Virus record (IMG/VR): IMGVR_UViG_3300001484_000215
Origin: a virus
DNA length: 29,683 nucleotides
Direction: 5' to 3' (one strand)
The position numbers were made by a program, and so were the translations under genes. Shown here in pieces: positions 27,060-27,221 of the stretch. The first letter of the stretch is position 1; each line of letters begins with the position of its first letter. A model generated the notes under the pieces. The model had not been told where the DNA came from and searched no databases. It was given only the letters and a program-made list of their open reading frames with translations.

Positions 27060-27088
27060 TTGATTCTTTATTAAAAATTTGTTATAAT
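27060..27088 (+). promoter_or_regulatory. Near-consensus sigma70 promoter P1 with extended -10 (TTGATT-N17-TGtTATAAT).
   Basis: TTGATT at 27060-27065, a 17-nt spacer, TG at 27080-27081 and TATAAT at 27083-27088. Confidence 0.65.
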
Positions 27089-27160
27089 ATTTATAGAAAT
27101 ATATGGAAGAAATATATAGAACCTTATAAATTATAAAAACTATTAATATTAATAAATTAA

Positions 27161-27189
27161 TTGATTTTTTATAATTTTTTTGTTATAAT
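27161..27189 (+). promoter_or_regulatory. Second, near-identical tandem promoter P2 (TTGATT-N17-TGtTATAAT), ~35 nt upstream of the ATG.
   Basis: TTGATT at 27161-27166, a 17-nt spacer and TGTTATAAT at 27181-27189. The RBS GAAAGG and ATG 27222 follow. Confidence 0.65.
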
Positions 27190-27221
27190 ATAATTATAAA
27201 TAAAAAAGAAAGGTAAAAAAT

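What the first reader, a model, noticed from the sequence alone, without database searches (positions are those of the whole stretch)
27060..27221. Tandem duplicated near-consensus promoters driving the MVP-like gene
Two almost identical TTGATT-N17-TGtTATAAT elements sit ~100 bp apart, immediately upstream of the MVP-like gene. The intergenic region is shared divergently with the tape measure start. This predicts very strong, possibly early, host-RNAP-dependent expression of the MVP-like gene.
Basis: seen in the sequence. Interest (0 to 1): 0.5.

Follow-up and report, generated by a model that had tools for sequence, protein, structure and literature searches.

The report
Two conserved phage promoters, juxtaposed
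Two strong-looking bacterial-type promoters really do sit 101 bp apart in front of a phage gene for a major-vault-protein homologue, but they are two separate, conserved promoters brought together when the genes between them were lost, not a duplication; this is ordinary promoter biology in an unusual phage.

Summary
P1 (27060-27088) and P2 (27161-27189) are both TTGATT-N17-TATAAT with a TGn extension. The window has 3 such sites against 0.07 expected by chance. The gene downstream (ATG 27222, 824 aa) is a genuine MVP homologue. The divergent gene (start 26961, minus strand) is a 2908-aa tape measure that is readable only if TAG is translated.

"Duplicated" is not supported. In relatives with 75-79% MVP identity, the P2 orthologue lies 61-67 nt before the MVP ATG. 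The P1 orthologue lies 1.4-4.4 kb further upstream, at the divergent junction, and heads a block of 2-7 TAG-free genes. The window lineage lacks that block. It keeps the P1 leader and about 20 nt resembling the 3' end of Thg1. P1 resembles a promoter 3.9 kb downstream (93.5%) more than it resembles P2 (81%).

Host sigma-A-dependent transcription in a Firmicutes host is well supported by sequence. "Early" is plausible but untested. In favour, MVP has 0 TAG against 62 in the tape measure, and its codon usage is distinct. Against, the same promoter type precedes a TAG-rich structural gene.

Seen in passing: TAG in this phage behaves as glutamate, not glutamine.

The parts
27060..27088 (+). P1: -35 TTGATT (27060-27065), 17-nt spacer, TG (27080-27081), -10 TATAAT (27083-27088). 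Predicted start near 27095-27097. It is the orthologue of the promoter that heads the rightward TAG-free gene block in relatives.
   Evidence: Orthologues: L003 5564, L005 5491, L052 6323, L006 4292, L008 3420, L010 3613. Identical in the 97% relative L051.
27089..27139 (+). Leader inherited from the P1 transcription unit. It is homologous to the 5' UTR of the first P1-driven gene in relatives, up to the point where their Shine-Dalgarno would begin. It contains the 13-nt direct repeat AGAAATATATGGA/AGAAATATATAGA (27095-27120).
   Evidence: Alignment A2; repeat D4. No significant RNA structure (z -1.16). No Rfam match.
27140..27160 (+). Junction and A/T-rich region upstream of P2. The right-hand roughly 15-20 nt resemble the last codons of the Thg1 gene, which overlaps P2's -35 in relatives. 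A 7-bp indel between the window and L051 lies at the junction (after 27139).
   Evidence: Alignments A1 and A3. The resemblance is weak in A/T-rich DNA. The region could equally be retained as an UP-like element.
27161..27189 (+). P2: -35 TTGATT (27161-27166), 17-nt spacer, TG (27181-27182), -10 TATAAT (27184-27189). Predicted start near 27196-27198. It is the conserved MVP-proximal promoter.
   Evidence: Orthologue found 61-67 nt before the MVP ATG in L003, L005, L006, L007, L052, L008, L010, and in many relatives of 57-65% identity.
27207..27213 (+). Shine-Dalgarno (AGAAAGG) of the MVP-like gene, ending 8 nt before the ATG.
   Evidence: Conserved as GAAAGG, AGAGG or AGGAG in relatives.
27222..29683 (+). 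MVP-like gene. It is 824 aa in full, and the window ends 4 codons before the stop. It has no in-frame TAG, GC 35%, and CAG > CAA.
18235..26961 (-). Tape measure gene (2908 aa, 62 in-frame TAG), transcribed divergently from the same intergenic region.
   Evidence: (PF10145 on the 2908-aa product).
27001..27028 (-). Best candidate for the leftward (tape measure) promoter: ATGTCA-16-TATTAT, with a weak -35. The -10-like ATATTATATA is conserved in relatives; the -35 is not.
   Evidence: L051 has ATGTTA at the -35. This is a candidate only.
27030..27046 (.). Box conserved in relatives between the divergent promoters (ATTATyTTATCTTGACC). In the window it reads ATTATTTTATCCCGACC. Its function is unknown; it may be a regulator site.
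   Evidence: Alignments A2 and A4.
17987..18015 (-). Third member of the same promoter class (TTGAAA-17-TATAAT with TG). It lies 36 nt before a TAG-rich 1297-aa gene downstream of the tape measure.

Best explanation
P1 and P2 are two distinct promoters read by the host's housekeeping sigma factor (sigma-A/sigma-70 type with a TGn-extended -10, as is common in Firmicutes). They belong to a dispersed family of phage promoters with the consensus aaTTGAttTTT..AAAattT.TGaTATAATATAtaT.

In the wider phage family, P2 is the dedicated promoter of the MVP-like gene. P1 sits at the divergent junction with the tail (tape measure) operon and heads a variable block of TAG-free accessory genes (metallophosphatase, Thg1, a GIY-YIG endonuclease and others) that lies upstream of MVP. 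In the window's lineage that block is absent, most likely deleted. The breakpoints fall between the P1 leader (about 27139) and the last roughly 20 nt of Thg1. As a result, P1 now fires through P2 into MVP.

The expected outcome is two MVP mRNAs, with 5' UTRs of about 125 nt and about 25 nt, transcribed by unmodified host RNA polymerase. MVP and the next 7.3 kb contain no TAG, whereas the divergent tail operon is full of TAG sense codons. The 260-bp region is therefore also the boundary between genes translatable in the host's code and genes that need the phage's code change. MVP can be made from the first minutes of infection.

Shown: the motifs, their excess over chance, their orthology and conservation, the gene-content differences, and the TAG and codon-usage contrast. 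Inferred: the direction of the event (deletion), promoter activity and strength, and early timing.
For: - Motif geometry and excess over chance.
- P2 orthologues directly before MVP, and P1 orthologues 1.4-4.4 kb upstream at the divergent junction. P1-P2 distance: window 101, L051 108, L005 1447, L052 1614, L006 2647, L010 3322, L008 3515, L003 4372 nt.
- In alignment A2, window homology to the relatives' P1 leader stops where their Shine-Dalgarno begins. In A3, homology to the Thg1 3' end resumes just before P2.
- None of the intervening L003 genes is present in the window or in L001.
- Across 48 loci, 22 have the strict promoter within 200 nt of the MVP ATG, always with a 17-nt spacer, against a background of 0.036 per 200 nt. 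In several relatives a terminator hairpin immediately precedes it (L016, L023, L027, L030).
- Between the window and the 97% relative L051, the 260-bp spacer carries 9 substitutions and 2 indels, none inside either 29-nt promoter core. My estimate is that this pattern arises by chance with probability about 0.06.
- Further family members at L001:13727 and window:18015, each following a terminator-like hairpin.
- TAG counts: MVP 0/824 and 0 in the ten ORFs to the endolysin, against 62/2908 in the tape measure.
- Codon usage of MVP, Band_7, RNA ligase and the kinase: GC3 0.16-0.30 (0.22-0.30 for the first three), CAG > CAA, CTN > TTA, against GC3 0.11-0.16 in the tail-side genes of the window, apart from one 190-aa ORF at 0.18. 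The bias is kept in the 78% relative (CAA 0, CAG 28).
- Firmicutes host.
Against: - There are no transcript data, so activity, strength and timing are all predicted from sequence.
- The -35 is only 4/6.
- The same promoter class precedes a TAG-rich, presumably structural gene. The class is therefore not diagnostic of early expression.
- Replication genes further right (RNase H, GyrB) are also TAG-free but lack the MVP-type codon bias. The bias could therefore reflect gene origin rather than expression level.
- The polarity of the event rests on a short, A/T-rich resemblance to the Thg1 3' end. The window lineage is no more than 83% identical in MVP to every other lineage sampled, so insertion of cassettes between P1 and P2 in the other lineages is not excluded.
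- About a third of family members have no recognisable promoter before MVP.
Confidence: 0.7

Rival explanations
1. This is the first reader's view: a local tandem duplication. A roughly 100-bp segment carrying one promoter was duplicated in place.
For: The two copies share identical hexamers, spacer length and TGT, and are 76% identical over 49 nt at 101-bp spacing.
Against: - Each copy has its own orthologue at a different place in relatives: 95% over 44 nt for P1 and 89-94% over about 70 nt for P2.
- P1 is more similar to L001:13727 (93.5%) than to P2 (81% core).
- The sequences flanking the two copies are not homologous to each other. They match a leader and a Thg1 3' end respectively.
Confidence: 0.04
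2. Only P2 matters. P1 is a stranded relic of the lost gene block. It contributes little to MVP expression or interferes with P2 by occlusion, and it is on its way to decay.
For: In every other lineage MVP is served by a single proximal promoter or by none. The box upstream of P1 that is conserved in relatives is mutated in the window and in L051.
Against: The P1 core is intact (10/12 plus TG) and unchanged between the window and L051, while the surrounding spacer has diverged. No terminator or stable structure lies between P1 and P2, so P1 transcripts should read into MVP.
Confidence: 0.15
3. The A/T-rich divergent spacer is primarily something else, such as a replication origin or a regulator-bound early/late switch. 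On this view the promoter-like motifs are secondary or are operator-embedded.
For: - Cumulative GC skew has its minimum at 26.5-27.5 kb and its maximum at the convergent point near 9.2 kb.
- A conserved non-promoter box lies between the divergent promoters.
- The spacer has many short A/T palindromes.
- The layout resembles the phi29 A2c/A2b/A3 control region (PMC3100819).
Against: - GC skew here tracks gene orientation. The minimum and maximum are only 18 kb apart in a genome of probably 120-150 kb, so the skew is not evidence of an origin.
- No iterons or DnaA-box arrays were seen.
- This reading does not exclude promoter function, and the conservation pattern (hexamers, TG and fixed 17-nt spacing conserved while the spacer sequence varies) is the pattern expected of promoters.
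Confidence: 0.1
4. The motifs are chance matches in A/T-rich DNA and are not functional elements.
For: The loose consensus scan finds as many sites as in shuffled sequence.
Against: The strict pattern gives 3 observed against 0.07 expected. The sites are correctly oriented and spaced before genes. They are conserved at orthologous positions down to about 57% protein identity.
Confidence: 0.02

Closest known systems
Bacillus phage phi29 central control region: tandem early promoters A2c and A2b facing the late promoter A3 (PMC3100819)
   Same: Both are short intergenic regions in a Firmicutes phage. Each holds two tandem host-sigma-A promoters that drive non-structural genes in one direction. 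Each also holds a divergent promoter with a poor -35 that drives structural genes in the other direction.
   Different: No p4- or p6-like regulators or binding sites were identified here. The leftward promoter is only a candidate. In this phage the tandem state is a lineage-specific by-product of gene loss rather than a conserved design. Early/late partition may rest on TAG recoding rather than on a transcriptional switch.
Tandem strong host-RNAP promoters, such as phage T7 early promoters A1-A3 and bacterial rrn P1-P2 (from general knowledge, not checked here)
   Same: Both have two or more strong sigma-70-type promoters about 100 bp apart that feed one highly expressed transcription unit.
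   Different: Those arrangements are conserved and functionally characterised. Here only one shallow lineage has the pair, and no expression data exist.
Gram-positive sigma-A promoters with a -16/extended -10 region (TRTG-n-TATAAT) (general knowledge)
   Same: TTGAnn at -35, a 17-nt spacer, TGnTATAAT, an A/T-rich upstream region, and relatives that often read TATG or AATG before the -10.
   Different: The conserved sequence extends past the -10 (TATAATATAtaT). This may be a phage-family peculiarity. The window's own sites read TTTG rather than TRTG.
Stop-codon-recoded gut phages, and the model that standard-code genes are translated early and recoded genes late (Borges et al., 10.1101/2021.08.26.457843)
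   Same: TAG is used as a sense codon in tail genes and in the endolysin, but not in the MVP/RNA-repair/replication block. The phage has low GC and probably a Firmicutes host.
   Different: Here TAG columns align with glutamate, not with the glutamine of code 15. No suppressor tRNA was found in the DNA available.
Viral major vault protein homologues reported from human-gut Caudoviricetes ctOa11 and ct2Ri15 (preprint 10.1101/2023.11.10.566534)
   Same: Both are full-length MVP-like genes (shoulder plus cap-helix) in large tailed phages, with Firmicutes hosts suggested.
   Different: That study did not examine promoters, genetic code or expression; 'promoter' and 'stop codon' each occur 0 times in its text. 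Whether those two phages belong to this clade was not tested.

Membership tests
Sigma-70/sigma-A housekeeping promoter with extended -10 | -35 hexamer close to TTGACA | tested here: met
   TTGATT (4/6, TTGA kept) in both P1 and P2. TTGAnn is conserved in orthologues.
Sigma-70/sigma-A housekeeping promoter with extended -10 | -10 hexamer TATAAT with an upstream TGn, at 17 +/- 1 nt from the -35 | tested here: met
   TATAAT 6/6, TGT extension and a 17-nt spacer in both. The spacer is 17 in all 22 strict orthologues.
Sigma-70/sigma-A housekeeping promoter with extended -10 | Located upstream of, and oriented towards, a gene with a ribosome-binding site, and conserved at the orthologous position | tested here: met
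Sigma-70/sigma-A housekeeping promoter with extended -10 | Transcription initiates 6-8 nt downstream of the -10 in vivo or in vitro | not testable with these tools
   No transcript data are available. Predicted starts are 27095-27097 and 27196-27198.
Local tandem duplication | The two copies are each other's closest relatives, and the homology includes their flanks | tested here: not met
   P1 vs L001:13727 is 93.5% and P1 vs L003:5560 is 95%, against 81% (core) or 76% (49 nt) for P1 vs P2. The flanks are homologous to different loci in relatives.
phi29-type early/late divergent control region | Tandem early promoters facing a late promoter with a deficient -35 | tested here: inconclusive
   The tandem rightward promoters are present. 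The leftward candidate is ATGTCA-16-TATTAT, with a conserved -10-like ATATTATATA and a non-conserved -35. Timing is unknown.
phi29-type early/late divergent control region | Regulator (p4/p6-like) binding sites that overlap the early -35 elements | not tested
   Only an unexplained conserved box at 27030-27046 was seen. No regulator was identified.
Major vault protein family (for the downstream gene) | MVP shoulder domain followed by a long cap-helix, collinear with eukaryotic MVP | tested here: met
   PF11978 E 6.9e-22 at residues 513-625. phmmer against rat MVP gives E about 7e-14 over 322-775 vs 330-811. Vault repeat PF17795 is recorded in close homologues.
Major vault protein family (for the downstream gene) | Assembles into vault-like shells | not testable with these tools
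   No structure prediction or experiment was done.
TAG-recoded phage, genetic code 15 (TAG = Gln) | In-frame TAG in essential genes that gives full-length proteins when read through | tested here: met
   ORF total rises from 6900 to 11369 aa. The tape measure becomes 2908 aa and other genes 1297, 955, 838 and 670 aa.
TAG-recoded phage, genetic code 15 (TAG = Gln) | TAG positions correspond to glutamine in homologues | tested here: not met
   TAG columns align to E in 193 of 324 cells and to Q in 18. The log-likelihood is -578 for E against -1114 for Q. By site, 9 of the 11 sites with a majority residue are E and none is Q.
TAG-recoded phage, genetic code 15 (TAG = Gln) | Phage-encoded suppressor tRNA(CUA) | tested here: inconclusive
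   None in the window, L001 or 110 related loci. Only part of each genome was available.

The most novel reading that the evidence does not exclude
The 260-bp divergent spacer may be the phage's code boundary and master early/late control region. On the right, host-code genes headed by a codon-optimised MVP homologue would be driven from the first moments of infection by stacked host promoters. This would build a vault-like or SPFH-type assembly together with an RNA-repair set (RNA ligase, kinase, phosphatase; Thg1 in relatives) before the phage switches the cell to a code in which TAG means glutamate. On the left, the tail operon would be transcribed from an activator-dependent promoter and would become translatable only after that switch. 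The lineage-specific stacking of P1 on P2 would then be an adaptive boost of MVP dosage rather than a neutral deletion scar.
Probability: 0.12. Interest if true: 0.7.

Novelty: new member of a known kind. Interest (0 to 1): 0.3.

Why it matters
Taken alone, the finding adds two more sigma-A-type promoters to a phage, which is routine. It has three uses.

- It gives precise, testable transcription starts for a phage-encoded major vault protein homologue, a gene family whose function in phages and bacteria is unknown. The family is very large: 6208 database proteins at E <= 1e-10.
- It shows that MVP has its own conserved promoter across a broad family of 120-190 kb gut and rumen phages. MVP also lies in the TAG-free part of the genome with a distinct codon usage. 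Both point to strong expression that does not depend on the code change.
- It marks the exact boundary between standard-code and recoded genes. This is a convenient place to test the idea that recoding times late gene expression.

The glutamate reading of TAG, seen in passing, would matter more than the promoters if confirmed.

Tried and rejected
- Rfam on the whole window found nothing, and ARAGORN found no tRNA, so the spacer holds no known RNA element.
- Folding the P1-derived leader gave no significant structure (z -1.16). A riboswitch or attenuator reading was dropped.
- PHROGs has no family for MVP or for the 1297-aa gene.
- The phage GenBank collection holds only three distant MVP hits, in huge phages LR756500, LR756501 and LR756503 (41% identity). 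Their upstream regions have neither this promoter nor a Shine-Dalgarno, so they were not useful for comparison.
- A TTGACA at 27022-27027 looked like a third -35. It has no -10 at a suitable distance and is TTAACA in L051, so it was rejected.
- An 8-codon mini-ORF in the P1 leader (27103-27129) is not conserved in relatives by eye on A2, so it was rejected.
- The origin-of-replication reading from GC skew was judged to be confounded by gene orientation.
- A first attempt to infer the meaning of TAG from a nucleotide alignment of the tape measure with L051 failed. The two tape measures are only about 45% identical although MVP is 97% identical. The endolysin's two TAG sites were uninformative.
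- A search for suppressor tRNA(CUA) in 110 loci was negative.
- I first read L003 as a standard-code relative because its tape measure has 0 TAG in 1641 codons. Its GIY-YIG ORF reads through three TAGs, so I withdrew that claim.

Full report
**What is in the sequence**

The stretch 27060-27221 lies inside a 260-bp intergenic region, 26962-27221. It holds two sites with identical architecture.
- P1: TTGATT (27060-27065), 17 nt, TATAAT (27083-27088), with TG at 27080-27081.
- P2: TTGATT (27161-27166), 17 nt, TATAAT (27184-27189), with TG at 27181-27182.

The two sites start 101 bp apart. They are 76% identical over 49 nt and 25/31 identical in the core (sequences). P2's -10 ends 32 nt before an ATG at 27222, which is preceded by a GAAAGG ribosome-binding site.

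**Is it more than chance?**

The window is 29.5% GC. A loose promoter scan is therefore uninformative: 56 sites against 51 +/- 7 in shuffles. The strict pattern TTGA-N16-TGnTATAAT is informative. It occurs three times against 0.07 expected, and none of 100 shuffles reaches three. The 31-nt consensus shared by P1 and P2 matches nothing else, against 0.00 expected. All three strict sites are intergenic and point at the next gene. The third, at 18015-17987 on the minus strand, lies 36 nt before a 1297-aa ORF.

**The flanking genes**

- Rightward gene. The ORF from 27222 runs off the window. Identical database proteins are 824 aa long. It carries the MVP shoulder domain (PF11978, E 6.9e-22). It also aligns collinearly with rat and human major vault protein over residues 322-775 (E about 7e-14). 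"MVP-like" is therefore correct.
- Leftward gene. Standard translation shows only fragments. Reading TAG as sense raises the total ORF length from 6900 to 11369 aa. It also creates a 2908-aa minus-strand gene (18235-26961) with 62 in-frame TAGs. The public gene call for that product carries PF10145, the tape measure family.
- The window therefore comes from a TAG-recoded tailed phage. Its plus-strand genes at 669-8782 include tail and tail-fibre families.
- Beyond the window, the same phage (locus L001, a 65-kb contig) continues with MVP, a 63-aa membrane protein, Band_7/SPFH, RNA ligase, an AAA_33 kinase, a metallophosphatase, a holin, a GH25/CHAP/SH3 endolysin, RNase H and gyrase B/A.

**The two promoters are not a duplication**

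I fetched 46 viral loci encoding MVP relatives and four contigs of closer relatives.

In every relative at 75-79% MVP identity with enough upstream DNA, the architecture is the same. The tape measure (with one or two small leftward genes) faces a divergent junction. A P1-type promoter follows, then 2-7 rightward TAG-free genes, then a P2-type promoter 61-67 nt before the MVP ATG, then MVP.

The distance between the two promoters varies widely:

| Locus | P1-P2 distance (nt) |
|---|---|
| window | 101 |
| L051 | 108 |
| L005 | 1447 |
| L052 | 1614 |
| L006 | 2647 |
| L010 | 3322 |
| L008 | 3515 |
| L003 | 4372 |

- The window's P1 matches L003's junction promoter at 95% over 44 nt. Its P2 matches the MVP-proximal promoters at 89-94% over about 70 nt.
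- Alignment A2 shows that the window shares the leader downstream of P1 with relatives, up to the point where their Shine-Dalgarno and first gene begin.
- Alignment A3 shows that similarity resumes about 15-20 nt before P2's -35. In relatives this stretch is the 3' end of the Thg1 gene, whose stop codon overlaps the -35.
- None of the intervening genes of L003 is present anywhere in the window or in L001.
- P1 is closer to another family member 3.9 kb downstream (L001:13727, 93.5% over 31 nt) than to its neighbour P2.

The similarity of P1 and P2 is therefore that of a dispersed promoter family. Their proximity results from the absence, most likely the loss, of the genes that separate them elsewhere. 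The tight pair is confined to the window's shallow lineage: the window, L002 and L051, which share 97-100% MVP identity.

**Evidence that they are real promoters**

- At the strict threshold, 22 of 48 loci have a TTG..-N17-TGn-TATAAT site within 200 nt of the MVP ATG. The spacer is always 17 nt and the -10 ends 32-61 nt before the ATG. The background is 0.036 per 200 nt per strand. By eye, about ten more have the same element without the TG.
- Across relatives down to about 57% protein identity, the hexamers, the TG and the spacing are kept while the spacer sequence drifts. This is the conservation signature of a promoter.
- In several relatives (L016, L023, L027, L030) a GC-rich hairpin with a T-run sits immediately upstream. 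MVP is therefore an insulated transcription unit there.
- In the window's phage, MVP is followed by a 22-bp hairpin (L001 12483-12530; -25.4 kcal/mol, z -6.7). The next units are again built as terminator followed by promoter (L001 13690-13720 and 13727).
- Between the window and the 97% relative L051, the 260-bp spacer carries 9 substitutions and 2 indels, none within either 29-nt core. By my estimate that is only suggestive (probability about 0.06).
- No terminator or stable structure separates P1 from P2. P1 transcripts should therefore read into MVP.

**Host and polymerase**

- Most genes have GGAGG-type ribosome-binding sites.
- The endolysins carry Gram-positive wall-binding domains.
- Relatives were binned with Bacilli, Erysipelotrichaceae, Eubacteriales and Clostridium MAGs. 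This is weak evidence.
- The TGn-extended -10, often TATG or AATG in relatives, is the Gram-positive sigma-A style (general knowledge).
- The distant MVP homologues in huge phages LR756500 and LR756501 have neither this promoter nor a Shine-Dalgarno. That is consistent with a different host type.

**Early and strong?**

These points remain inferences.

In favour:
- MVP has 0 TAG in 824 codons, and the ten ORFs from MVP to the endolysin (7.3 kb) have none. The tape measure has 62 and the other tail genes have 0.6-3.6 per 100 codons.
- The Borges et al. model holds that standard-code genes are translated before the phage changes the code (10.1101/2021.08.26.457843).
- MVP, Band_7, RNA ligase and the kinase also stand out in codon usage. 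Their GC3 is 0.16-0.30 (0.22-0.30 for MVP, Band_7 and RNA ligase). GC3 is 0.11-0.16 in the tail-side genes of the window, apart from one 190-aa ORF at 0.18. All four prefer CAG to CAA and CTN to TTA, and three of them (not MVP, at 12 CGY to 19 AGA) prefer CGY to AGA. The 78% relative keeps the bias (CAA 0, CAG 28). This argues for selection rather than recent acquisition.

Against:
- The same promoter class precedes the TAG-rich 1297-aa gene next to the tape measure.
- TAG-free replication genes lack the codon bias.

Promoter type therefore does not by itself indicate timing. If timing is controlled, it may be at translation.

**The leftward side**

The tape measure operon must start in this spacer, because the next 12 kb to the right are all rightward genes. 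There is no strict sigma-A match on the minus strand. The best candidate is ATGTCA-16-TATTAT at 27028-27001. Its -10-like ATATTATATA is conserved in relatives, but its -35 is not. A further box (ATTATyTTATCTTGACC; window 27030-27046) is conserved between the divergent promoters and is unexplained. The layout recalls the phi29 A2c/A2b/A3 control region, where the late promoter has a poor -35 and needs an activator (PMC3100819). No regulator or regulator binding site was identified here, so this is a resemblance and not a membership claim.

**Comparison with the literature**

Phage MVP homologues were reported in a 2023 preprint. It did not address promoters or genetic code (10.1101/2023.11.10.566534). 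Tandem sigma-70/sigma-A promoters are commonplace. The finding is therefore a new member of a known kind. The corrected history is juxtaposition, not duplication.

**Seen in passing: TAG behaves as glutamate**

Four structural proteins of the window were aligned, with TAG masked, to 60 related loci.
- In conserved context, TAG columns align with E in 193 of 324 cells (GAA 159, GAG 34) and with Q in 18.
- The E-to-E identity rate in the same alignments is 65%.
- An empirical likelihood gives -578 for E, -1076 for K and -1114 for Q.
- By site, 9 of the 11 TAG sites with a majority residue are E (one is E in 43 of 43 relatives) and none is Q. The controls recover Q for Q sites (30 of 37) and E for E sites (53 of 70).
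- The tape measure gives the same trend.
- No tRNA(CUA) was found in the DNA available.
- The papers I searched describe TAG as Gln in phages, and I found no report of TAG as Glu.
- Many Firmicutes lack GlnRS and charge tRNA-Gln with Glu before amidation (general knowledge). A suppressor that escapes amidation would insert Glu. This is a hypothesis that I did not test.

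Noticed in passing
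window 669-8782 (+) and 18235-26961 (-); relatives L055-L114: The sense codon TAG behaves as glutamate, not as the glutamine of code 15. TAG columns align to E in 193 of 324 cells and to Q in 18. The log-likelihood is -578 for E against -1114 for Q. By site, 9 of the 11 sites with a majority residue are E and none is Q. I found no report of TAG = Glu in phages in the papers searched.
   Followed up: partly
window 1-29683; L001; 110 related loci: No suppressor tRNA(CUA) was found in any DNA fetched. More distant relatives carry tRNA arrays just upstream of MVP (L030, L033, L046). L030 has a tRNA with anticodon TCA, which is a possible TGA suppressor.
   Followed up: partly
L001 10001-16989 (window 27222 onward): MVP is followed by a small membrane protein, Band_7/SPFH, RNA ligase, an AAA_33 kinase and a metallophosphatase. 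Relatives add Thg1 directly upstream of MVP. This looks like an RNA-repair set linked to an MVP/SPFH pair. MVP, Band_7, RNA ligase and the kinase share an unusual codon usage (GC3 0.16-0.30, CAG > CAA, TTA avoided).
   Followed up: partly
L001 12483-12530 (just beyond the window's end): A perfect 22-bp hairpin lies immediately after the MVP stop codon (-25.4 kcal/mol, z -6.7) and is followed by GUUUUAG. It is a likely terminator or mRNA-stabilising 3' structure, and it can form on both strands.
   Followed up: partly
window 27030-27046; L003 5534-5550 and orthologues: A box (ATTATyTTATCTTGACC) is conserved between the divergent promoters in relatives. It carries two changes in the window and one in L051. 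Its function is unknown; it may be a regulator site.
   Followed up: no
window 17987-18235 (-): The tape measure ends with a GC-rich hairpin (AAGAGGGGTTTAACCCCTCTT). A 51-aa ORF follows, then a third strong sigma-A-type promoter in front of a TAG-rich 1297-aa gene that has no family match.
   Followed up: partly
window 18235-26961 vs L051 1-5732: The tape measure of the closest relative is only about 45% identical in protein. In the same relative MVP is 97% identical, the intergenic region is 97% identical, and the first 30 nt of the tape measure gene are identical. The tape measure is therefore mosaic or hypervariable.
   Followed up: no
L003 8349-9176 and 1-4924: In the 78% relative, the tape measure has no TAG in 1641 codons. 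A GIY-YIG endonuclease ORF in the early block becomes full length (275 aa) only if three TAGs are read through. TAG usage therefore differs sharply between close relatives and between genes.
   Followed up: no
L001 17358-18767: The endolysin is the only gene right of MVP with in-frame TAG (2 codons). The TAG at residue 31 is itself conserved as TAG in 7 relatives. This fits the reported bias of recoding towards lysis genes.
   Followed up: no
window 9000-9500 and 26500-27500: Cumulative GC skew peaks at the convergent gene boundary (about 9.2 kb) and is lowest at the divergent spacer (about 27 kb). This probably reflects gene orientation, but an origin at the spacer was not excluded.
   Followed up: no
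L053 (LR756500.1) and L054 (LR756501.1): MVP homologues of 41% identity occur in 462-kb and 735-kb huge phages. They have no sigma-A-type promoter or Shine-Dalgarno upstream, which suggests a different host type.
   Followed up: partly
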